Positions 1,298-22,091 of a stretch of 52,326 nt of DNA are shown here, piece by piece. The DNA comes from a virus (Duplodnaviria > Caudoviricetes), in the IMG/VR virus record IMGVR_UViG_3300012211_000001, positions 1 to 52,326 of that record; one strand, given 5' to 3'. How positions within the stretch are numbered: position 1 is the first letter of the stretch; every line of letters begins with the position of its first letter. Made by a program: the position numbers and the translations under genes. A model generated the notes under the pieces. The model saw nothing but the letters and a program-made list of their open reading frames with translations, did no database searches and was not told the origin of the DNA.

Positions 1298-2592
1298 TGC
1301 CAACGCCCCAAGCGTCATTATCCGACATTTGGAAACTCAAGATTTTAACTGATATCCGCCCTGGTGGGAACATGGAGCGGGTGACATTCAGCCGCACTGG
1401 TGTGGCGTCGTATTTCAAGCATGATCTGACGGTGGGGTCAGCGGCTACGGGGATTTTGCGCACGGAATGGTTAAAGGACCCCGTGTCTGGAATTCTCCAG
1501 CCCTATCTGAAGCTGGAAGCCGCCGCGACGAATAGCTGCTTGCAATCGCAGGCGCTGGCGACCGCGCCCTGGACGACCAATTTGCTGACGGCGACAAACA
1601 ACGCTGCCGTCGCGCCGGATGGGACGACGACCGCGAGCAGCCTCATTCCCACCGCCGTGAGCAGCGCCTTTCATCAGGTGAGTCAGACCATCACAGTGAC
1701 GGCAGGAGAATATGTCGCCATCTCCGGCTTCTTTAAGGCCAATGGCTACCCGGGGCTACAATTTCGTTTCGACGGTGTCTCCGGTTTCGCCGCATGGTAC
1801 GCCGACCTGGTGCTTGGGACAATCGCCGTAGCAGGGGCGAGCGGGTATACGGCCGTCGGGTCTGCCGTGATCCCACTCGGCAACGGCTTGTTCTGGTTAG
1901 CGGCGTGGGGCAAGACCCTCACCGATACGACTGTGAGCTTCAAAGCAGCCGTCTATGACACCGCCGCCCACGCGAACACGAGCACCGCCTTCACCGGTGA
2001 TGGTACGTCGGGTATCTACGCCTGGGGCCTTCAGCTGGAGCGTAACGGGGCGAACGCGCTGCCGCCGACCAGCTACATCACTACCACGACGATCGCGGTC
2101 ACGCGGAATGTGGACAGCTTCTCCGTGCCGTACTTCATTGATCCCAAGAGCATGGCCAATAGTTGGATGTACTTGCGGTTTTGGGATGTCGGCGGCAGTC
2201 AGGCGGCAAACTTCAGCGTCCCGTTAGTCATCGGCAATCCAAGCGGCACGCGCTTTCTATTCGACAACCGCACCAAGGGCGTCTGGAACATCCAGCATAA
2301 CGTCAGCGGGGGTAGTGAAGTTGATTCACAGATCGGGACGATTGCCACTTACGGGCAAGTGCAGGAATTGCTCGGCTTCATCAATGCCAACGGATCCGTA
2401 CAGTTGCGCGGCAGTGTCAACGCAGCGGCCGATGTGGTCGGCGCTCTGAGTGGCGCGAATGCACTCGCCTCGACCTTCGGCACGCTCACTTTGATATTGG
2501 GCGGCGTATCCATTCTGATCTCACGGATAGTAGTGGGGTTGGGTGCTGGGGTATCAGTGAACACGATCCAAGATGTGCGCAGCATCCCTTAA
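1297..2592 (+). CDS. Fibre/spike-like virion protein with carbohydrate-binding-type domains
   Basis: TFSR...LEAAATN...APDGTTTA...IYAWGLQLE...PTSYITT...TRNVD motifs typical of phage spike/fibre domains. Confidence 0.7.
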   Translation: MPTPQASLSDIWKLKILTDIRPGGNMERVTFSRTGVASYFKHDLTVGSAATGILRTEWLKDPVSGILQPYLKLEAAATNSCLQSQALATAPWTTNLLTATNNAAVAPDGTTTASSLIPTAVSSAFHQVSQTITVTAGEYVAISGFFKANGYPGLQFRFDGVSGFAAWYADLVLGTIAVAGASGYTAVGSAVIPLGNGLFWLAAWGKTLTDTTVSFKAAVYDTAAHANTSTAFTGDGTSGIYAWGLQLERNGANALPPTSYITTTTIAVTRNVDSFSVPYFIDPKSMANSWMYLRFWDVGGSQAANFSVPLVIGNPSGTRFLFDNRTKGVWNIQHNVSGGSEVDSQIGTIATYGQVQELLGFINANGSVQLRGSVNAAADVVGALSGANALASTFGTLTLILGGVSILISRIVVGLGAGVSVNTIQDVRSIP

Positions 2593-2609
2593 GGAGTTAT
2601 CTTCAAAAA

Positions 2610-2864
2610 ATGGCTGGGAAAAAGGGCCGCTCCGGTCGCCACTCCTTCGAGCTCACGCTTCGTGCACAGGCGATTGTGGAGCGCGCCAAATTGTTGGAGG
2701 AAGCTGAACAGATCGCCACCAATAAAGCCCTCGCCCCGTCCGATCGCCTCCACGCCATCCGCTTTCTTGTGGAGTACGGCTTCGGGAAAGCGAACCAGCC
2801 CGTCAGTACGCCTCCAGGCACGTCCTTCACACTGAAGTTCGGGGCTGATGCCGACGACGCTTGA
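2610..2864 (+). CDS. terS: Terminase small subunit (putative)
   Basis: AAGGAG RBS, MAGKKGRSGR start, YGFGKANQ C-terminus, overlaps terL. Confidence 0.7.
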   Translation: MAGKKGRSGRHSFELTLRAQAIVERAKLLEEAEQIATNKALAPSDRLHAIRFLVEYGFGKANQPVSTPPGTSFTLKFGADADDA

Positions 2865-4107
2865 ATACGTGAGGCCATGGCTTTACAACAAGCAACATGA
2901 AGCGATCTTTTGTCCCACCCGTTACGCCTTGGTCGAAGCCTCCACGAAGTCCGGTAAAACTGTTGGTTGTCTCGTCTGGTTCACTGAACAAGCACTCCAG
3001 GGAAAACTCGGGCAGAACTTCTGGTGGGTGGCACCATCCCACTCTCAGGCGAAGATGGCCTTCCAACGGCTCCGCCATGCGATCCCCCGTCAGATCATCG
3101 AACCCAATGAAACCGACCTCACCCTCAAACTGCTCAATGGGGCGATCCTCTGGTTCAAGACGGGGGAGAAGCCAGACTTGCTGTATGGCGAAGATGTCTA
3201 TGCCGCCGTGGTGGATGAAGCCTCTCGTCTCCGGGATGAAGCGTGGCACGCCCTGCGCTCAACGCTCACGGCGACCAGGGGTCCGGTGCGCCTGATCGGC
3301 AATGTGAAAGGACGGAAGAACTGGTTCTACGCGCTCTGCCGACGGGCAGAAGGTGGTGCGCCGAACATGCATTACGCCAAGCTCACTTGGAAAGATGCCG
3401 TCGAAGCGGGCGTCTTGCAGCTCGCCGAGGTGGAAGATGCGAAAGCCCAACTCCCCGAGTCCGTGTTTCAAGAACTCTATGCGGCAGAGCCGAGTGAGGA
3501 TGGGGGCAATCCCTTCGGCATCCAGCATATCGATCAGTGTACGGCACCACTCTCGAAGAAGGCGCCGAAGATTTGGGGCTGGGACTTAGCGCGGGCCCAT
3601 GACTATACCGTGGGCATTGCGTTAGACGACGAGGGATATGTCTGCCGGTTAGAGCGCTGGCATGAGGACTGGGAACCGACGATGCTCAAGATCCAAGCCC
3701 ACATCAGCAATACGCCGGCGTGGATCGAGCAGAACGGCGTCGGGGATGCACCAGTTCAACTGCTCCAGAAAGGCCACAGCAATATCCATGGGTTTTTGAC
3801 GACCGCCCCTTCGAAACAGGCGATCATGGAACGCTTGGCTGTTGCAATACAACAGCACGACGTGCATTTTCCTGAAGGGATTCTGGCGTCCGAACTCCGG
3901 TCGTTTGAGTTTGAGTCGACGCGCACGGGGGTGCGCTACAGTGCCCCGGAAGGCTGTTTTGACGACTGTGTGATGGCGTTAGCCATTGCCTGGCACGCCT
4001 TCGATCGCACCACGCCGCAGGTGGTGCCAGTCGGTGTGGAGCAGCAGAGTAAGTGGGTAGGACTCGGCGCTTTGGGGAACACTGGTCGGAAGTGGGGCGG
4101 CACATGA
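2848..4107 (+). CDS. terL: Terminase large subunit
   Basis: Walker A-like STKSGKT, Walker B VVDEA, nuclease motifs GWDLA..DYT and DDCVMALA. Confidence 0.95.
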   Translation: MPTTLEYVRPWLYNKQHEAIFCPTRYALVEASTKSGKTVGCLVWFTEQALQGKLGQNFWWVAPSHSQAKMAFQRLRHAIPRQIIEPNETDLTLKLLNGAILWFKTGEKPDLLYGEDVYAAVVDEASRLRDEAWHALRSTLTATRGPVRLIGNVKGRKNWFYALCRRAEGGAPNMHYAKLTWKDAVEAGVLQLAEVEDAKAQLPESVFQELYAAEPSEDGGNPFGIQHIDQCTAPLSKKAPKIWGWDLARAHDYTVGIALDDEGYVCRLERWHEDWEPTMLKIQAHISNTPAWIEQNGVGDAPVQLLQKGHSNIHGFLTTAPSKQAIMERLAVAIQQHDVHFPEGILASELRSFEFESTRTGVRYSAPEGCFDDCVMALAIAWHAFDRTTPQVVPVGVEQQSKWVGLGALGNTGRKWGGT

Positions 4108-4113
4108 CAACGC

Positions 4114-6228
4114 ATGGCCCGTAACGGCAAAAAGCTCTCCAAAGAAGCGCCCGCTGTTACCCGCGCCCTCGCTGAACGTGGCGGCAGCGCTGCGGAACGC
4201 GGGGGCCTTGGCATCCCCGTTACCGTCCGTCCAGAACCCTCTGATCCTGCTGCGCAACCACTTCCCACCGACCGGCGCCTAGTGGGTCTTGAACTCGGGC
4301 GTACAGGCCTCACGCAGTATTACGGCCGACTGTACGAAGAATTCCTCCCTGAACTCCGGCAGGAAAAAGGCCGCAAGATCTTTCGTGAGATGGCCGATAA
4401 TGATCCGACCATCGGAGCCTTACGTTCCGCCATCAAATTGCTCGTTAAATCCGCCAAGTGGCGCACCGAATCGGCCCACAACAAGGTGGATGCGCGGGCG
4501 GATTTCGTTGAGCAATGTCGCACAGACACCGAACATACCTTCGAGGAATTAGTTGGGGAAGTCGTCGATGATATGATCGTCTTTGGGTTCCATTATCCAG
4601 AGATTGTCTATAAGCGTCGGCAGTCGGGCGACTCGCAATACAAAGACAACAAGATCGGGTGGAAGAAATTCGCGACGCGGAGTCCCGAATCCCTGTATCG
4701 CTGGGAATTCGAGTCAGACACCCAGGAATTGCGTGGGATGTGGCAACGTCCGCCACCAGACTTCCAATTGCGTTATATCCCATTGGAAAAAGCATTGCTC
4801 TTTCGCATGGAGACCTTGAAGAATTCACCCGAGGGTCGCTCAGGATTACGCAACGCATATCGTCCGTGGTACTTCAAGAAATACCTCGAACAGTTGGAAG
4901 CGATCGGGGCTGAACGGACAGCGGCTGGCTATCCCGTCATGTGGATCCCTGCTGAGATGATCCTCAAGAACGATCCGCTCGTGGATACCTTCACGAAGAT
5001 GGCGGTCAACATCCGCACCGATGAGCTCATGGGTATGGTCATGCCTTTGGCCTATGATGAGAAGGGCCAGAAGCTTTACGACTTCGAGTTCAAATCCCCC
5101 GCCGGAGGGAAGCAATATGACATGTCGGCCATCATCACCCGCTACGATGTGCGGATTCTGATGACGGTTTTGGTGGACTTCGTGATTCAGGGCCATGATC
5201 AGACGGGCTCGTTCGCGATGGCGAAGACGAAGATTGACTTCTTCAACCTCGCCCTCTCCGGGTGGCTGGATGCGGTGGCGGGACCTCTTAACCGCTATGC
5301 CATTCCGCGGCTGCTTGAGCTGAACGGCATGGACACGGAAGATCCGCCACAATTCAAACATGGAGATGTGCAACGCCGGGATCTGCAGCAGATCGGCGAC
5401 TATATCCTTAAGCTGTCGCAAGCAGGGATGCCGATCTTCCCAGATCCTGCGATTGAAAACGTACTACGAGAGTTTGGCGACTTGCCGACGATGCCTCCAG
5501 AAGAACTCCAGCAGCGTGAGTTGCAGGATCAGGAGGAAGAAGCCTTGGCGGCACAGGAAGCAGCGGCACGGAGTCAGGCGGCGATTGCCACCAATCGGGC
5601 TACGGCGGCGAATCCCGAGCCGAAAGGAATTACGGCTCCGAAAGAGGAACCACCGAAGTCGAATGGAAAGCCAGAAGCGAAACCAGAGCCAGCGGCGAAG
5701 CAAGATATTCATCTGCATGTACATGAAGGGAATGTGTCCGTCACTCCGTCGCCCGTGACGGTGGAGGGTGCGCAGATCACTGTGAGCAAAGATGCCCCCC
5801 CGGTGACCCAAGTTACCGTAGAGGCTGCTGCGCCAATCGTGGTACCCCCAGCGGTGGTCCATGTGGATGGATCGCAGATTACGGTGGAAGCGTCCGCGCC
5901 ACTGGTGATTCCTGCACCCCAGGTCACGGTGGAAAAGACGGTCGTAGCACCCGAGATCACCGTTGCCGCACCGCAGATTACCGTTCAGGCGGCAGCCCCA
6001 GTTGTCGTTCCGGCCCCACTTGTAACGGTGGAGAAGACGACGGTCGAAGTGGCGGCTCCGCAGATCACCGTGGAGGCACCAGTCGTGACCGTGGAACCGC
6101 CTGCGGTGACAATTCAAAACGTGATCGAGAAGGATCAAACGCCGAAACAATTGATCGTTCAGCGGGATGCGGATGGCAAGTTCATCGGTGGCACGATTAC
6201 CCCTACCTCGTCGGGAGAGACATCATGA
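4114..6228 (+). CDS. Portal protein (DUF935/Mu gp29-like) with long repetitive C-terminal extension
   Basis: Follows terL; PEGRSGLRNAY, GSFAMAK, LNRYAIPRLLELN motifs. Confidence 0.9.
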   Translation: MARNGKKLSKEAPAVTRALAERGGSAAERGGLGIPVTVRPEPSDPAAQPLPTDRRLVGLELGRTGLTQYYGRLYEEFLPELRQEKGRKIFREMADNDPTIGALRSAIKLLVKSAKWRTESAHNKVDARADFVEQCRTDTEHTFEELVGEVVDDMIVFGFHYPEIVYKRRQSGDSQYKDNKIGWKKFATRSPESLYRWEFESDTQELRGMWQRPPPDFQLRYIPLEKALLFRMETLKNSPEGRSGLRNAYRPWYFKKYLEQLEAIGAERTAAGYPVMWIPAEMILKNDPLVDTFTKMAVNIRTDELMGMVMPLAYDEKGQKLYDFEFKSPAGGKQYDMSAIITRYDVRILMTVLVDFVIQGHDQTGSFAMAKTKIDFFNLALSGWLDAVAGPLNRYAIPRLLELNGMDTEDPPQFKHGDVQRRDLQQIGDYILKLSQAGMPIFPDPAIENVLREFGDLPTMPPEELQQRELQDQEEEALAAQEAAARSQAAIATNRATAANPEPKGITAPKEEPPKSNGKPEAKPEPAAKQDIHLHVHEGNVSVTPSPVTVEGAQITVSKDAPPVTQVTVEAAAPIVVPPAVVHVDGSQITVEASAPLVIPAPQVTVEKTVVAPEITVAAPQITVQAAAPVVVPAPLVTVEKTTVEVAAPQITVEAPVVTVEPPAVTIQNVIEKDQTPKQLIVQRDADGKFIGGTITPTSSGETS

Positions 6229-12586: not shown

Positions 12587-12908
12587 TCTGATCGTCGGTC
12601 TGGTGCTACTCACTGGAGTGCAGACGGCTTCCGCACAAGGTATAGGGATCTTTCTGCATCACGATCGCTTGGCAGAATACGGCGCGGGGTTCGGACTCAA
12701 TGTCCTCTCGCGCGGTCCCTGGATTGCAAAGGATTTTCGTAAACCCGTGATCCGTTTGGTTGGGGTGCAGATCACGAGTTACGCCTATGAGCGCTTGTTC
12801 GACTACAACGGGTTCTCCTGGAATGACTATCGGCAGCGGCTCTACGGGTATCTCGTCACTGAGACGGTCATCGAGGGCGGTCGATGGATATGGCACCAGA
12901 TCCGATGA
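12579..12908 (+). CDS. Secreted/membrane hypothetical protein
   Basis: Signal peptide MRSLIVGLVLLTGVQTASA|Q. Confidence 0.55.
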   Translation: MRSLIVGLVLLTGVQTASAQGIGIFLHHDRLAEYGAGFGLNVLSRGPWIAKDFRKPVIRLVGVQITSYAYERLFDYNGFSWNDYRQRLYGYLVTETVIEGGRWIWHQIR

Positions 12909-14593
12909 CCATTACGATTGCGAAGTCTTTCGTTGATGATCTGCTGGCCTTGGCGGATCAGCTCGCCCCCAAACTGCGACGTGCGTTCCTTGACGCGATT
13001 GCCGCACTCCGTGATGAACTCACCCCGACCACGATCGCGGACCTCTTGCAGGGGGCCCATCCGACGGCGATCGAATTGTGGCAGCGGCTCCAAGAATTAT
13101 TGACGCCACCGATGCAGGATGCCATCCTTGCAGGTGTCGTGGAGGTGGGCGGATTGACGGGCGAGCAGTTCCCGCCCAGTGTGCAAATCCAGTTCGCGTT
13201 CGACCGCACCAATCCTTTCGCGCTCGATGCCGTGGATACGATCGTGGCCGATGCAGTGCGCGATATCGCCAATGCGAGTCAAGATGCGATTCGGCTGATC
13301 CTGCGTCAGGGCTTCACGGATGGATTGACACCCGATCAGATGGGCCGCCGACTCCGTGCGAACATTGGCCTGACGGATCGCTATGCTCAAGCCGTAGAGA
13401 ACTATCGGCAATCCCTGCTGGATCAGGATACCTCCGTAGGGCGTGCCGACGCATTGGCTGATGCCTACGCGCGCCGGCTCCTGAATATTCGCGCGAGCGC
13501 GATTGCGCGGACGGAATCCATTCGTGCGATGAGTGCCGGGCAGGACGCCTTGTGGGCCAGTGCGGTGGAGCAGAAACTCTTAGACCCTCAGCGCACCCGT
13601 CGTGATTGGATTGTGACGGAGGATGATCGGCTGTGTCCGATCTGCGAAGCGATCCCAGACCAGAATCCTGATGGCGTCGCCCTTGGGGAGCCGTTTCAGT
13701 CTGATGTTGGGCCATTGCAGTATCCGCCAGCACATCCCCTATGCTTTCCGGGAGATACGCTCGTAGCGTCCCGTTATGGGATTGCGGCCCAGAGTAAACG
13801 ATGGTATCAGGGACAACTTGTCATCATCCGCACGGCAGGAGGTAAGCAGCTTTCCACTACCCCCAATCATCCAATACTCACGAGTTGCGGTTGGATGGCG
13901 GCGAGCACGCTTGATGAATCCTGCGATGTCATCTGCGACCTGTTCGCGCAGCGGGTGAGTACGATTGATGACAATGATGGTCTGATGCCAACCAGCATCG
14001 AAGAAGTAGCGGACACGCTGTGGCAGGCGTCGCAGATGCGAACCGTTGAAATGCCAATTGCCGCCGAAGATTTCCACGGCGACGGGAAAGGCTCCCAAAT
14101 CGCAATTGTAAGGGCCCACAGCTTGTTGGGGGATAGTGCCGATTCCCTGCGCTTTGAGCCATCCTCCGACTTCGATTTCATACCAGGTTTGTTGACCGAG
14201 GCGTTGGATTTCCAAGGCTCTGATACACAACGATTCCAGTGTGCGCCGACTACCACGGGTTGCACTATGGGCGGCGACGGTTTGCCTGCATCGTTGATCT
14301 GTAGTCATATGCGACCACTTGAGCCGCTCGGCATCACTTTGGGATCGCATGGTAATGCCGTGCTCCCGCAGGATACGGTCAATGACATTTCGGCTGACCT
14401 GCTCTCGTATGGCGAGTTGGTTGGTCGATATCCCAGCGAGATAATCTTGGACAAGATCATCCGAGTTGAGCGTCGTGATTTTTCGGGTCATGTCTACAAC
14501 CTCCAGACAGGTGGCGGATGGTACATCGCTGAAGGTATTATAGCACACAATTGTCGCTGTGCGGTTACCCTTTCCTTCAAGGAATCCTCGTGA
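12905..14593 (+). CDS. Head morphogenesis protein (MuF/SPP1 gp7) containing an intein
   Basis: RASAIARTES, W...DDRLCPIC, PPAHPL|intein|CRC. Confidence 0.92.
   Translation: MTITIAKSFVDDLLALADQLAPKLRRAFLDAIAALRDELTPTTIADLLQGAHPTAIELWQRLQELLTPPMQDAILAGVVEVGGLTGEQFPPSVQIQFAFDRTNPFALDAVDTIVADAVRDIANASQDAIRLILRQGFTDGLTPDQMGRRLRANIGLTDRYAQAVENYRQSLLDQDTSVGRADALADAYARRLLNIRASAIARTESIRAMSAGQDALWASAVEQKLLDPQRTRRDWIVTEDDRLCPICEAIPDQNPDGVALGEPFQSDVGPLQYPPAHPLCFPGDTLVASRYGIAAQSKRWYQGQLVIIRTAGGKQLSTTPNHPILTSCGWMAASTLDESCDVICDLFAQRVSTIDDNDGLMPTSIEEVADTLWQASQMRTVEMPIAAEDFHGDGKGSQIAIVRAHSLLGDSADSLRFEPSSDFDFIPGLLTEALDFQGSDTQRFQCAPTTTGCTMGGDGLPASLICSHMRPLEPLGITLGSHGNAVLPQDTVNDISADLLSYGELVGRYPSEIILDKIIRVERRDFSGHVYNLQTGGGWYIAEGIIAHNCRCAVTLSFKESS
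13739..14491 (-). CDS. Antisense-encoded Vsr/DUF559-like PD-(D/E)XK endonuclease with N-terminal HTH, nested in the intein
   Basis: 250-aa ORF with E..V..WL...GI....QQAVGPYNCD....VAVEIFGGNWH motif; GGAGG RBS 8 nt before ATG. Confidence 0.8.
   Translation of the reverse strand: MTRKITTLNSDDLVQDYLAGISTNQLAIREQVSRNVIDRILREHGITMRSQSDAERLKWSHMTTDQRCRQTVAAHSATRGSRRTLESLCIRALEIQRLGQQTWYEIEVGGWLKAQGIGTIPQQAVGPYNCDLGAFPVAVEIFGGNWHFNGSHLRRLPQRVRYFFDAGWHQTIIVINRTHPLREQVADDIAGFIKRARRHPTATREYWMIGGSGKLLTSCRADDDKLSLIPSFTLGRNPITGRYERISRKA
13742..14551 (+). mobile_element. Intein (Hint), 270 aa
   Basis: Cys1 CFPGDTLV, block B TPNHP, block F VYNLQT, terminal HN followed by Cys+1; splits the MuF HPxCRC motif. 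Confidence 0.92.
14537..14545 (-). promoter_or_regulatory. Extended -10 promoter (TGcTATAAT) for the antisense endonuclease
   Basis: Perfect TGnTATAAT on the minus strand, ~45 nt upstream of ATG 14491. Confidence 0.7.
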
Positions 14594-20700: not shown

Positions 20701-21117
20701 ATGGCCTACGAGATACCGCTGTTCGATGTATCGGCGCTGGCAACGGTGCCGATCATTCAGTACCGGCTGGTGAAGTTCTCCGGCGCGGGGATCAAACACA
20801 CGACCAATTTGGCCCACCGCTCGCTTGGGGTGGCCCAACAGAGCGGTACGACCTCTCCACAGACCATGGTGAGCGTTCGCACCTTCGGGGTGACCAAGGT
20901 CGAAGCTTCCAGTGGTGCGGTGACATTCGGCGCAGTACTCTCGCCGACTTCAGGAGCGGTTTCGACTGCCTCGCGTCTCGGGGGAACGGTCAAGGTCTCG
21001 ACCGCGCCCAAGACTTCGTATGTGATCGGCTATGCCATGACCACCGCTGCGGCGGGGACCGGGCGTCGGATCATCTCGATGCTGCTGACTCACGCCGGTT
21101 TCGCGACCACCGCATGA
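20701..21117 (+). CDS. Capsid cement/decoration protein (DUF2190-like) 1
   Basis: YRLVK..GVAQ..VRTFGVTKVEA..IGYAM. Confidence 0.75.
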   Translation: MAYEIPLFDVSALATVPIIQYRLVKFSGAGIKHTTNLAHRSLGVAQQSGTTSPQTMVSVRTFGVTKVEASSGAVTFGAVLSPTSGAVSTASRLGGTVKVSTAPKTSYVIGYAMTTAAAGTGRRIISMLLTHAGFATTA

Positions 21118-21137
21118 TGACGGGAAAGGACTAAGCG

Positions 21138-22091
21138 ATGCCATTGCCATCCCCACAACAGGTACACATAGATGTACCGTTGTCCAATTTGTCCATCGCC
21201 ATCATGCAGGAGGAGGCCGTCTTTGGCGTGGCGCGCATGGTGTTCCCCAACGTGCCAGTGGACAAGCAATCGAACAAATACTATGTGTGGAAGCAGGAAG
21301 ACTTCTTCCGCACCGATGCAACGAAGCGGGCCCCCGGGGCCGAATCGACCGGCTCGGGCCTCAACGTCTCCAGCTCGTCCTATTACTGCGATGTCTGGGC
21401 CAGTCACTTTGATATCGACCATCAGACCGCCGCGAACGTCGATCTGGCGCTGGATTTGGAACGGGCCGCCGTCGCGAAAGTGACCCGCGATATTCTCATC
21501 CGTGAAGACTTGGATTTCGTCGCCAAATACTTCGCCACCGGGATCTGGAATGCCGATACCCCGGTCGGCATCACTTGGGACAACGTGAACTCGACACCCA
21601 TCGAGGACATCCGCGGCCGCTGGTATGTGATGGTGCAGAACTCCGGGATGATCCCCAGCGATCTGACGCTGGGCCCGAACACCTACAAGCGGCTCCAGGA
21701 TCATCCGGACATCTTGGATCGGATCAAGTACACGCAGACAGCGATCGTCACGAAGGACCTGATTGCGTCCGTACTGGATCTGCGCCGGGTCAATGTGCTG
21801 TTCGGAGTGGCGAATAGCGCAAACGAAGGTGCCGCCACTGGAACATTCGCGTTCAATGCGGGCAACCATGCCCTCCTAACCTATGCGCCTACGGGCCCGG
21901 GCCTCATGGTGCCCTCAGCGGGCTACACGTTCATCTGGACGACTCCAGAGAACAACGCCTATCCGATCGCCATCGCGCGGATTCCGATCCTGTTCCGGAA
22001 GGTCGAGCGGATCGAAGGCGAGACGGCCTTCGCCAATGCAGTCACCGCCAAAGTGCTTGGCGAATTTTTGCCGAGCTGCGTCGCCTCGTGA
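21138..22091 (+). CDS. Major capsid protein
   Basis: VHIDVPLSNLSI, FPNVPVDKQSNKY, HPDILDRIKY, PSAGYTF. Confidence 0.92.
   Translation: MPLPSPQQVHIDVPLSNLSIAIMQEEAVFGVARMVFPNVPVDKQSNKYYVWKQEDFFRTDATKRAPGAESTGSGLNVSSSSYYCDVWASHFDIDHQTAANVDLALDLERAAVAKVTRDILIREDLDFVAKYFATGIWNADTPVGITWDNVNSTPIEDIRGRWYVMVQNSGMIPSDLTLGPNTYKRLQDHPDILDRIKYTQTAIVTKDLIASVLDLRRVNVLFGVANSANEGAATGTFAFNAGNHALLTYAPTGPGLMVPSAGYTFIWTTPENNAYPIAIARIPILFRKVERIEGETAFANAVTAKVLGEFLPSCVAS

What the first reader, a model, noticed from the sequence alone, without database searches (positions are those of the whole stretch)
13739..14551. Intein whose endonuclease is encoded on the opposite strand, with promoter and RBS built into the splice-motif codons
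Seen: the MuF protein has a 270-aa intein (C1..HN|C) whose middle has no recognisable LAGLIDADG or HNH motif. The minus strand carries a codon-aligned 250-aa ORF with an HTH-like N-terminus and a Vsr/DUF559-type motif (E..WL..GI..QQAVGPYNCD..VAVEIFGGNWH). Its stop TAG is the reverse complement of the last N-extein codon (CTA, 13739-41). Its ATG is the complement of the His codon in GHVYNLQ, and its GGAGG RBS comes from the NLQ codons. A perfect TGnTATAAT lies in the IIA codons just before the terminal HN. Known: intein homing endonucleases are normally in-frame domains. Inference: this is a dual-strand selfish element whose nuclease is expressed independently of the late head gene, possibly early enough to home during co-infection.
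Basis: partly seen in the sequence, partly recalled or inferred. Interest (0 to 1): 0.93.

Follow-up and report, generated by a model that had tools for sequence, protein, structure and literature searches.

The report
MuF intein with antisense homing endonuclease
A self-splicing protein insert (intein) in this soil phage's head-assembly gene carries its DNA-cutting mobility enzyme as a separate gene on the opposite strand, codon against codon; it is real and under selection, but a 2025 preprint already described the layout.

Summary
The plus strand encodes a MuF head-morphogenesis protein with a 270-residue class-1 intein at 13742-14551. The minus strand encodes, in codon register, a 250-residue HTH plus Vsr-like (EDxHD-type) nuclease at 13739-14491.

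Both frames are under selection. In 64 related loci the intein's middle varies most at the antisense third codon position. The nuclease genes use none of the three codons that would stop the sense frame: 0 seen against 240 expected in 65 loci. The antisense protein folds confidently (pLDDT 91.8) onto I-Bth0305I and Vsr. The sense middle is predicted to be disordered.

The -10 box, RBS, ATG and stop written in splice-block codons are over-represented given the amino acids. No expression data exist.

The closest MuF relatives lack the intein and read YPPAHPLCRCAVTL uninterrupted.

This is not new in kind. Gosselin, Arsenault and Gogarten (bioRxiv 2025) report anti-sense VSR-like endonucleases in full inteins of actinobacteriophages. 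This scan has also noted the layout on other genomes. New here are the embedded-signal statistics, the reach beyond actinophages, and one free-standing relative (L064).

The parts
12884..14593 (+). MuF / SPP1 gp7-like head morphogenesis gene (precursor of 569 aa, including the intein)
   Evidence: phrog_3517 head morphogenesis 1.2e-38. Pfam Phage_Mu_F 1.4e-4, below its cut-off. Intein-less homologues carry PF04233.
12884..13741 (+). N-extein (286 aa), ending ...YPPAHPL
   Evidence: It is 56-68% identical to intein-less MuF proteins of 279-293 aa that continue directly into CRC.
13742..14551 (+). Class-1 intein, 270 codons: C1, block B T40-P-N-H43-P, block F GHVYNLQT, block G H269-N270
   Evidence: Alignment A2 has C1, T40, N42, H43, P44 and N270 invariant and H269 at 90% or more. 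TIGR01443 intein_Cterm scores 18.0 bits against a cut-off of 15.6. The AF2 model's best Foldseek hits are inteins 1am2, 4oz6 and 2in9, with probability 0.99-1.00.
13742..13939 (+). Hint N-terminal subdomain (intein residues 1-66)
   Evidence: Block-mean pLDDT is 82-95 over residues 1-60. Sense codon position 3 is the most variable here, so selection acts on the sense frame.
14120..14437 (+). Sense-frame middle of the intein (residues 127-232), translated as a spacer of no predicted fold
   Evidence: pLDDT is under 50 throughout. Sense codon position 1 is the most variable, and sense aa identity is lower than antisense.
14441..14551 (+). Hint C-terminal subdomain (residues 234-270, blocks F and G)
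   Evidence: Block-mean pLDDT is 80-96. The sense-frame substitution pattern returns here.
14552..14593 (+). C-extein CRCAVTLSFKESS plus stop, with +1 Cys at 14552-14554
   Evidence: Intein-less relatives read HPLCRCAVTL without interruption.
13739..14491 (-). Antisense homing-endonuclease gene (250 aa plus TAG), codon-aligned with the intein
   Evidence: 78 database homologues, up to 58% identity, best E 1e-88. 342 IMG/VR stretches encode a relative. AF2 mean pLDDT is 91.8. Antisense-frame selection is seen.
14363..14464 (-). N-terminal helix-turn-helix DNA-binding module (endonuclease residues 10-43)
   Evidence: Helices 10-18, 23-30 and 34-43. HTH_58 is found in 11 of 33, HTH_23 in 7 of 33 and HTH_7 in 7 of 33 family members.
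13898..14185 (-). Vsr-like / EDxHD-type nuclease domain (residues 103-198) with invariant E105, D131, E140 and H147
   Evidence: Foldseek hits are 3r3p I-Bth0305I (probability 1.00, E 7e-3) and 1vsr (probability 0.99). Profile A3 against PDB sequences gives 3r3p at E 0.0048. That alignment places D131 and H147 on the crystal construct's D196A and H213A positions. PF18741 is found in 16 of 33 members.
14500..14504 (-). Shine-Dalgarno-like GGAGG, 8 nt before the ATG, written in the N-L-Q codons of block F
   Evidence: Read from the sequence. SD-like words at this place occur in 25 of 41 related inteins against 8.6 expected from synonymous usage. GGAGG occurs in 15 against 3.9 expected.
14537..14545 (-). 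Extended -10-like TGCTATAAT, 45 nt before the ATG, written in the I-I-A codons of block G
   Evidence: TATAAT at this codon position occurs in 10 of 41 (0.36 expected) and in 9 of 34 in a second set (0.61 expected). Salmonella phage PK2 has the identical 9-mer at the identical distance.

Best explanation
This is a mobile intein whose homing endonuclease is a separate gene on the opposite strand.

On the plus strand, MuF is translated through the whole 270-residue insert. The two Hint halves (residues about 1-66 and 234-270) fold together. The roughly 170 residues between them are only the mirror image of the nuclease gene and act as a floppy spacer. Splicing at C1/N270/C+1 joins HPL to CRC and restores the conserved MuF motif.

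On the minus strand, the same codons encode a 250-residue protein. It has an N-terminal HTH, a helical linker and a Vsr-like (EDxHD-type) nuclease. Inferred: this protein cuts intein-less MuF alleles at or near the HPxCRC-coding site in a co-infecting phage, and repair then copies the whole cassette in.

The nuclease gene must avoid TTA, CTA and TCA codons, because their complements would stop MuF.

Its own signals sit in the complement of splice-block codons: the -10 in block G, the RBS and ATG in block F, and the stop at the intein/extein border. The cassette therefore travels almost whole with the intein. It can probably be expressed without the late head operon.

Shown: both ORFs, their selection, the folds, the embedded motifs and their enrichment, and intein-less close relatives. 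Inferred: splicing, transcription from the -10, timing, cleavage and homing.
For: (1) Antisense frame is a real protein family.
- 78 homologues.
- 342 of 365 IMG/VR candidate stretches encode a relative.
- 121 phage records match.
- 30 loci in bacterial genomes or MAGs of many phyla match.

(2) Substitution pattern.
- In 64 unique loci aligned by the SENSE peptide, exteins and Hint blocks vary most at sense position 3.
- Intein residues about 61-240 vary most at sense position 1, which is antisense position 3.
- In that middle stretch antisense aa identity is 0.27-0.71, against 0.18-0.59 for sense.

(3) Sense frame kept open.
- A codon-aligned frame is open across the whole nuclease match in 79 of 80 IMG/VR loci, 30 of 30 genome loci and 4 of 4 named phages.
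- There are 0 TTA/CTA/TCA codons against 240.1 expected in 65 unique loci. Chance would leave 6.1 loci free of them; 65 are free.

(4) Folds.
- The nuclease has pLDDT 91.8 and pTM 0.72. Its top Foldseek hits are I-Bth0305I and Vsr.
- Catalytic Asp and His equivalents are invariant.
- In the sense model the Hint halves have high pLDDT and residues 127-232 are under 50. Its hits are inteins.

(5) Embedded signals, conditioned on the sense amino acids and local codon usage.
- TATAAT: 10 of 41 against 0.36 expected.
- TGnTAnnnT: 15 against 0.31.
- GGAGG: 15 against 3.9.
- ATG at either of two His codons: 15 and 18 against 8.3 and 8.2.
- Replicated in 34 other loci: TATAAT 9 against 0.61.
- The nuclease stop falls on intein residue 2 in 30 of 41. 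Of 32 Leu-2 codons, 30 are CTA or TTA, against a 10% background.

(6) Mobility.
- The nearest MuF relatives (56-68% identity) have no intein and read YPPAHPLCRCAVTL.
- The nearest intein-bearing N-extein is only 54% identical.

(7) One free-standing copy of the nuclease lies beside an intein-less MuF (L064). It has 5 sense-frame stops.
Against: - There is no transcript, protein, splicing or cleavage evidence of any kind. No RNA run holds the stretch.
- The window's own nuclease gets only sub-threshold Pfam hits: HTH_58 at 0.019 and MTES_1575 at 0.04.
- Foldseek E-values are weak (7e-3 and 2.4e-2), although the probabilities are 0.99-1.00.
- The consensus promoter scan did not list the -10. It has no -35 partner, and no terminator-like site was found.
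- A single TGNTATAAT in 52 kb is within chance.
- A perfect TATAAT is present in only about a quarter of relatives. No -10-like match was found upstream of the start in Gordonia phage Vivi2 or Pseudomonas phage BR313c.
- The host is unknown, so its sigma-70 consensus is assumed.
- The sequences in the enrichment tests are related. The simulated P values (0 of 200,000) therefore overstate significance.
- Higher conservation of the intein than of the exteins could reflect double coding rather than transfer.
Confidence: 0.8

Rival explanations
1. The antisense nuclease is real and selected, but it is not driven by the embedded -10. It is transcribed by read-through from a leftward promoter elsewhere, or from a phage-specific promoter. 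On this view the TATAAT-like and GGAGG-like words are by-products of A/T-rich Ile codons and of block F conservation.
For: The promoter scan does not list the site, and no -35 is present. One TGNTATAAT per window is within chance. Only 10 of 41 and 9 of 34 relatives have TATAAT. No -10-like match was found for Vivi2 and BR313c.
Against: The enrichment was computed conditional on the encoded amino acids and on local synonymous usage, and it is 15- to 50-fold. The rare codon ATA supplies 15 of 18 Ile at the key column, against 10% in the background. Salmonella phage PK2, only 29% identical in the nuclease, has the same 9-mer at the same 45-nt distance. Aaphi23 has TGTTATAAT at another nearby place.
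Confidence: 0.2
2. In this particular phage the element is a vertically inherited relic. The intein still splices, but the nuclease no longer homes because it is inactive or has no remaining targets.
For: The homing cycle predicts such stages. The preprint notes that several VSR-like intein groups look vertically inherited (section 15). No close intein-bearing sister of this phage was found.
Against: All invariant family residues, including E105, D131, E140 and H147, are intact in the window's copy. The ORF, start, RBS and -10 are all intact. Intein-less target alleles with the identical junction exist in metagenomes.
Confidence: 0.1
3. The antisense ORF is a chance open frame of a G+C-rich gene. 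Its database matches merely mirror conservation of the sense-frame intein.
For: Long antisense ORFs are common in this window. Codon-aligned frames do mirror each other's conservation. For example, sense AEDFHGDG mirrors the nuclease core.
Against: Substitutions pile up at the antisense third position in the middle. The antisense frame folds at pLDDT 91.8 while the sense middle is under 50. Members hit independent Pfam families: PF18741 in 16 of 33 and HTH families as well. L064 encodes the same protein (46% identity) where the opposite frame is closed by 5 stops.
Confidence: 0.01
4. It is a 'fractured gene'. MuF would be made as two polypeptides joined by a split intein, with the nuclease gene lying between the halves.
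For: The nuclease family is the one Dassa et al. 2009 found between split-intein halves (abstract and passages).
Against: The sense frame has no stop from 12884 to 14593. It is open in 79 of 80 and in 30 of 30 related loci. The stop-generating codons are avoided. There is no start or RBS for a separate C-intein piece, and the C-extein is only 13 residues long.
Confidence: 0.01

Closest known systems
Anti-sense VSR-like homing-endonuclease inteins of actinobacteriophages (Gosselin, Arsenault and Gogarten, bioRxiv 10.1101/2025.01.02.630785, version of 2025-10-20; I read the abstract, section 15 and passages)
   Same: Both have a contiguous, non-split intein with a VSR-like endonuclease ORF on the antisense strand. 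In both, the in-frame middle has no recognisable structure. Minor capsid (MuF-type) proteins are among the hosts of that paper's non-canonical inteins. Their predicted nuclease also matches Vsr (1CW0) and I-Bth0305I (3R3P). My tblastn hits include Gordonia phages Vivi2, Fosterous, Affeca and Angelicage.
   Different: The window is an uncultured soil virus of unknown host. Its nuclease is only 37-38% identical to the Gordonia phage copies. The main text of the preprint has no occurrence of 'promoter' or 'ribosom', and both occurrences of 'codon' are 'stop codon', so it holds no codon-usage analysis. It surveyed only PhagesDB. I could not see its supplementary tables, which list the phages and clusters.
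I-Bth0305I, the EDxHD family prototype (Taylor et al. 2011, PMC3239194; passages read)
   Same: Both combine an N-terminal HTH/NUMOD-type DNA-binding region with a C-terminal Vsr-like nuclease. The catalytic Asp and His align. It gives the best structural match. Both are tied to a self-splicing element in a phage gene.
   Different: I-Bth0305I lies inside a group I intron of recA on the sense strand and shares no codons with a protein. Sequence similarity to it is marginal (E 0.0048 with a 41-sequence profile).
'Fractured genes': split inteins with a free-standing Vsr-like endonuclease gene between the halves (Dassa et al. 2009, PMC2677866; abstract and passages read)
   Same: It involves the same nuclease superfamily, a phage setting, and an endonuclease gene with its own control elements sitting between the Hint halves.
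   Different: [quoted passage not shown] Here the host frame runs through the nuclease gene on the other strand. In that text 'antisense' and 'complementary strand' do not occur, and the passages with 'opposite' or 'orientation' concern charges, model refinement or the original gene orientation.
Antisense LAGLIDADG endonucleases in inteins (Synechocystis dnaX, Chloroflexus SpoVR-like; Gorbalenya 1998 and Gogarten et al. 2002, known to me only as cited in the preprint)
   Same: The principle is the same: a nuclease is encoded on the strand opposite to a contiguous intein.
   Different: The nuclease fold is different (LAGLIDADG) and so are the host genes. I did not read those papers.

Membership tests
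Class 1 intein (Hint domain) | N-terminal nucleophile Cys1 and +1 Cys/Ser/Thr | tested here: met
   TGC at 13742-13744 and TGT at 14552-14554. C1 is invariant in 35 of 35 sequences.
Class 1 intein (Hint domain) | Block B TxxH and block G His-Asn | tested here: met
   T40-P-N-H43-P and H269-N270. T40, H43 and N270 are invariant and H269 is at 90% or more in A2. TIGR01443 scores 18.0 against a cut-off of 15.6. TIGR01445 scores 22.2, below its cut-off of 24.5. Pfam Intein_splicing scores 31.8, below its cut-off of 35.8.
Class 1 intein (Hint domain) | Hint fold | tested here: met
   In the AF2 model the two halves have block-mean pLDDT of 82-95 (residues 1-60) and 80-96 (C-terminal part). The top Foldseek hits are GyrA, RecA and DnaB inteins with probability 0.99-1.00, although E is only 1.4e-3 or weaker.
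Class 1 intein (Hint domain) | In-frame insertion at a conserved host site, with intein-less alleles that match the spliced product | tested here: met
   Intein-less MuF proteins P0083, P0085 and P0089 read PPAHPLCRCA(V/T). P0085 reads YPPAHPLCRCAVTL.
Class 1 intein (Hint domain) | Protein splicing activity | not testable with these tools
   This needs expression and detection of the ligated HPL-CRC junction.
EDxHD / Vsr-like homing endonucleases | Vsr-type nuclease fold | tested here: met
   Foldseek: 3r3p with probability 1.00 and TM (target) 0.63; 1vsr with probability 0.99; 3hrl. E-values are weak (7e-3 to 0.14).
EDxHD / Vsr-like homing endonucleases | Conserved catalytic Asp (Mg2+) and His (general base), plus acidic residues | tested here: met
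   The profile alignment to 3r3p places D131 and H147 on the two positions mutated to Ala in the crystal construct (D196A, H213A). It places E140 on the Glu of AIEVNG. All are invariant in A1 and A3. The fifth motif residue was not mapped.
EDxHD / Vsr-like homing endonucleases | N-terminal sequence-reading DNA-binding region | tested here: met
   A three-helix HTH at residues 10-43. HTH Pfam families are found in 7-11 of 33 members. Some relatives carry two such modules.
EDxHD / Vsr-like homing endonucleases | Site-specific cleavage of the empty allele | not testable with these tools
Anti-sense VSR-like HEN inteins (Gosselin et al. 2025) | Contiguous intein ORF with the nuclease ORF on the opposite strand inside it | tested here: met
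   The same holds in 79 of 80, 30 of 30 and 4 of 4 related loci.
Anti-sense VSR-like HEN inteins (Gosselin et al. 2025) | In-frame middle without a recognisable fold, while the antisense product matches Vsr | tested here: met
Fractured gene / split intein (Dassa et al. 2009) | Host gene broken into two ORFs by the endonuclease gene | tested here: not met
   There is a single open frame from 12884 to 14593.

The most novel reading that the evidence does not exclude
The whole expression cassette of the nuclease is written in the complement of the intein's own splice-block codons: the extended -10 in block G, the RBS and ATG in block F, and the stop at Leu-2 of block A. Selection on synonymous sites holds it there across phages of many bacterial phyla. 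Those few dozen bases would then serve three purposes at once: Hint catalysis, nuclease coding and gene control. The element would be a self-contained, host-sigma-70-driven unit that fires independently of, and perhaps before, the late head operon. The free-standing copy beside an intein-less MuF (L064) would be an escape or a precursor of this unit.
Probability: 0.45. Interest if true: 0.6.

Novelty: new member of a known kind. Interest (0 to 1): 0.4.

Why it matters
The window adds a clean, intact example from an uncultured soil phage of a layout that was named only in 2025 and only for actinophages. The comparative work around it makes four points.

- The layout is spread far beyond actinophages. 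It occurs in Salmonella Jerseyviruses, Pseudomonas, Aggregatibacter and Pantoea phages, and in contigs assigned to at least ten phyla.
- It is almost never annotated.
- About 700 bases are truly double-coding, with measurable selection on both strands.
- The nuclease's control signals and stop are embedded in splice-motif codons. That can be tested in cultured phages.

It may also explain older remarks that MuF inteins 'lack a recognisable endonuclease', as in the Methylococcus capsulatus genome paper (PMC517821, passage read). I did not test that prophage.

For annotation pipelines, the lesson is that they will keep missing a widespread nuclease gene, because it lies wholly inside another gene on the other strand.

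Tried and rejected
- Nucleotide search of the MuF gene against phage records found no match.
- A single-protein scan of IMG/VR with the nuclease and one with the N-extein found no relatives. The alignment-based scan worked.
- RNA evidence: no RNA holder is listed for the stretch. The holders are soil-metagenome DNA runs, two of which may be the source. I did not lay reads.
I used the search for homologous proteins instead.
- The tree of 93 nucleases is only the quick IQ-TREE search. It places the free-standing L064 among nested copies with SH-aLRT 82, not starred. I treat the direction (escape or precursor) as open.
- I rejected the chance-ORF and split-intein readings; see the rival explanations.
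- Rows dropped: of 80 IMG/VR loci, 76 had enough flank and 66 were unique. L064 and L066 were then removed before the alignment of 64.
- The 41 'same-type' rows are those with C and N aligned at both junctions.
- In one search, four loci (L094, L101, L105, L115) had their junction mis-detected. They were kept and counted as misses.
- The supplements of the preprint were not seen.
Full report
**What is there**

The window is a complete 52,326-base virus record with direct terminal repeats, at about 58% G+C. The only holders found are soil-metagenome DNA runs, two of which may be its source.

The plus strand has a 569-codon ORF at 12884-14593. PHROGs call it head morphogenesis, MuF/SPP1 gp7-like (phrog_3517, 1.2e-38). 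It reads ...YPPAHPL|CFPGDTLV...GIIAHN|CRCAVTLSFKESS. The 270 codons at 13742-14551 carry the marks of a class-1 intein:
- C1, block B TPNHP, block F GHVYNLQT, block G HN and a +1 Cys.
- All of these are invariant or nearly so in 35 aligned relatives.
- TIGR01443 passes its cut-off. TIGR01445 and Pfam Intein_splicing fall just below theirs.

The minus strand, in exact codon register, has an ORF from ATG 14491 to TAG 13739 (250 aa).
- the stop is the complement of the last extein codon CTA;
- the ATG is the complement of the His codon in GHVYNLQ;
- GGAGG lies at 14500-14504, 8 nt upstream;
- TGCTATAAT lies at 14537-14545, 45 nt upstream.

**Is the antisense ORF a gene?**

ORF length alone says nothing here, because long antisense ORFs are common in this genome. 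The evidence is comparative.

The translated ORF finds relatives widely:
- 78 database proteins, up to 58% identity, best E 1e-88;
- 342 of 365 candidate stretches in IMG/VR;
- 121 phage records;
- 30 loci in bacterial genomes and MAGs.

Family members hit independent Pfam families: REase_MTES_1575 in 16 of 33, HTH_58 in 11 of 33, and HTH_23 and HTH_7 in 7 of 33 each. The window's own copy is sub-threshold.

Codon-aligned frames mirror each other's conservation, so I tested which frame is selected. I aligned 64 unique loci by their SENSE peptides, which favours the sense frame.
- Exteins and Hint blocks are most variable at sense codon position 3. There, sense amino-acid identity exceeds antisense.
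- From about intein residue 61 to 240 the pattern flips. Sense position 1 (antisense position 3) is the most variable, with identity 0.31-0.63 against 0.42-0.78 at sense position 3.
- In that stretch antisense amino-acid identity is 0.27-0.71 and sense identity is 0.18-0.59.

The folds agree.
- With 33 homologues, AlphaFold2 gives the antisense protein mean pLDDT 91.8 and pTM 0.72.
- The sense intein, with 35 homologues, has confident Hint halves and pLDDT under 50 for residues 127-232.
- The sense model's Foldseek hits are inteins.

**What the antisense protein is**

The model has a three-helix HTH (residues 10-43), a helical linker and an alpha/beta domain.
- Foldseek's best PDB hits are the I-Bth0305I catalytic domain (3r3p, probability 1.00, E 7e-3), E. 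coli Vsr (1vsr, probability 0.99) and a DUF559-like protein (3hrl).
- A profile of 41 nuclease domains finds 3r3p at E 0.0048.
- That alignment puts the invariant D131 and H147 on the two residues mutated to Ala in the crystal construct (D196A, H213A). The paper treats these as active-site residues, with His213 as the predicted general base (passages of PMC3239194).

So it has the architecture and catalytic residues of the EDxHD / Vsr-like homing endonucleases. Cleavage itself is untested.

**Is the sense frame kept open?**

A codon-aligned open frame spans the whole nuclease match in 79 of 80 IMG/VR loci, 30 of 30 genome loci and 4 of 4 named phages: Vivi2, BR313c, Aaphi23 and PK2.

In this register, sense stops are the complements of TTA, CTA and TCA. 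In 65 unique loci the nuclease genes contain none of these codons. From the Leu and Ser codon usage of neighbouring genes, 240.1 are expected. Chance would leave 6.1 loci free of them, and 65 are free. The lowest-G+C loci are the most telling (P about 1e-7 to 1e-8).

The exception is instructive. In L064 the nuclease gene (286 aa, 46% identical to the window's over residues 17-228) stands free. It is convergent with, and just downstream of, a MuF gene that has no intein (...GFIHPGCRCSCHLV...). There the opposite frame has 5 stops.

**Signals in splice-block codons**

In 41 inteins with both junctions aligned:

| Motif | Observed | Expected |
|---|---|---|
| TATAAT | 10 | 0.36 |
| TAnnnT | 20 | 3.0 |
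| TGnTAnnnT | 15 | 0.31 |
| SD-like word | 25 | 8.6 |
| GGAGG | 15 | 3.9 |
| ATG at first His codon | 15 | 8.3 |
| ATG at second His codon | 18 | 8.2 |

- The rare Ile codon ATA supplies 15 of 18 Ile at the key column, against 10% in the background.
- A second set of 34 loci (30 genome loci and 4 named phages, with four mis-detected junctions kept as misses) gives TATAAT 9 against 0.61 and TAnnnT 14 against 2.8.
- Salmonella phage PK2 has the identical TGCTATAAT at the identical 45-nt distance, plus GAGG at 8 nt. Aaphi23 has TGTTATAAT 28 nt upstream, plus GGAGG. BR313c has only GAGG, and Vivi2 has neither.
- The nuclease stop falls on intein residue 2 in 30 of 41. Of 32 Leu-2 codons, 30 are CTA or TTA, against a 10% background. 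The window has Phe at residue 2 and uses the extein's CTA instead.

Caveats:
- The sequences are related, so the P values are inflated.
- The window's single -10 match is within chance by itself.
- The consensus scan does not list it, for want of a -35.
- The host's promoter consensus is unknown.
- There is no expression evidence.

**Mobility**

The closest MuF relatives of the window's N-extein are intein-less proteins of 279-293 aa. Examples are P0081 at 68%, P0082 at 62%, P0083 at 59% and P0085 at 56% identity. They run straight through the site, as in YPPAHPLCRCAVTL, which is exactly the predicted spliced product. The nearest intein-bearing N-extein (L006) is 54% identical over 200 residues.

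The same insertion point recurs in very different MuF exteins. His at -2 is present in 41 of 41, and -1/+1 is most often P-x|C. This patchy pattern fits invasion and loss, but it does not prove ongoing homing.

**Double coding at the edge**

The free-standing L064 protein is homologous to the window's up to about residue 228. So the true C-terminal part of the nuclease overlaps intein residues of about 23-61, including block B. TPNHP is the mirror of nuclease W207-G211. In that stretch both outer codon positions are more conserved than in the exteins. I did not model this further.

**What is known**

Searches led to one direct precedent: Gosselin, Arsenault and Gogarten, bioRxiv 10.1101/2025.01.02.630785. 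I read its abstract, section 15 and passages.
- It reports anti-sense VSR-like endonucleases in full inteins of actinobacteriophages.
- It lists minor capsid proteins among the four host protein types of its non-canonical inteins.
- It cites Gorbalenya 1998 and Gogarten et al. 2002 for antisense LAGLIDADG cases. I did not read those papers.
- Its main text has no occurrence of 'promoter' or 'ribosom', and both occurrences of 'codon' are 'stop codon'. I could not see its supplements.

Dassa et al. 2009 describe the same nuclease family between split-intein halves. Their text has no occurrence of 'antisense' or 'complementary strand'.

This scan's own notes show the same layout reported from other genomes. 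All eight notes listed describe it, and several already cite the preprint.

**Verdict**

The element is a new member of a known, recently described kind.

- two-strand selection statistics;
- the finding that the -10, RBS, ATG and stop of the nuclease gene are embedded in Hint block codons and held by synonymous-site selection;
- the spread beyond actinophages;
- intein-less nearest relatives with the exact junction;
- a free-standing copy next to an empty site.

Expression, timing, splicing and cleavage remain to be shown.

Noticed in passing
L064:2309-3655: A free-standing copy of the nuclease (286 aa, two HTH modules) is convergent with, and overlaps the 3' end of, an intein-less MuF gene (...HPGCRCSCHLV...). 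The opposite frame is closed by 5 stops. In a quick tree it sits among intein-nested copies, with weak support.
   Followed up: partly
L066:2321-3848: The MuF reading frame is interrupted about 20 codons upstream of the intein, giving two ORFs (3270..3848 and 2321..3325 on the minus strand). This could be a frameshift, an assembly error or a real split.
   Followed up: no
L003 (Aaphi23) about 2265-2321: In Aaphi23 the extended -10-like TGTTATAAT lies 28 nt before the nuclease ATG, in different sense codons (G-Y-Y-N-I-N) from those used in the window. The signal appears to have been re-created at another place.
   Followed up: partly
phage records H77, H79 and H84: Several Salmonella Jerseyvirus records annotate the intein-bearing MuF gene as 'NAD+--asparagine ADP-ribosyltransferase'. 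Most records do not annotate the antisense gene at all. PK2, PK1 and vB_StyS-sam list overlapping hypothetical proteins.
   Followed up: no
PMC517821 (Methylococcus capsulatus genome paper, 2004): It describes a Mu-like prophage F (gp30) intein that 'lacks a recognizable endonuclease sequence'. This might be the same antisense layout. I did not check that prophage.
   Followed up: no
window 21090-21869 (-) and 5464-6150 (-): Other long antisense ORFs (259 and 228 aa) lie inside plus-strand genes of this 58% G+C phage. I took them as the chance background for ORF length and did not examine them.
   Followed up: no
alignment A1, columns 1-100 (P0016, P0023, P0028, P0037, P0053, P0066, P0078, P0079): A subset of the nuclease family has a second N-terminal HTH module, so the DNA-binding part is modular. 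These longer forms are also nested in open sense frames.
   Followed up: partly
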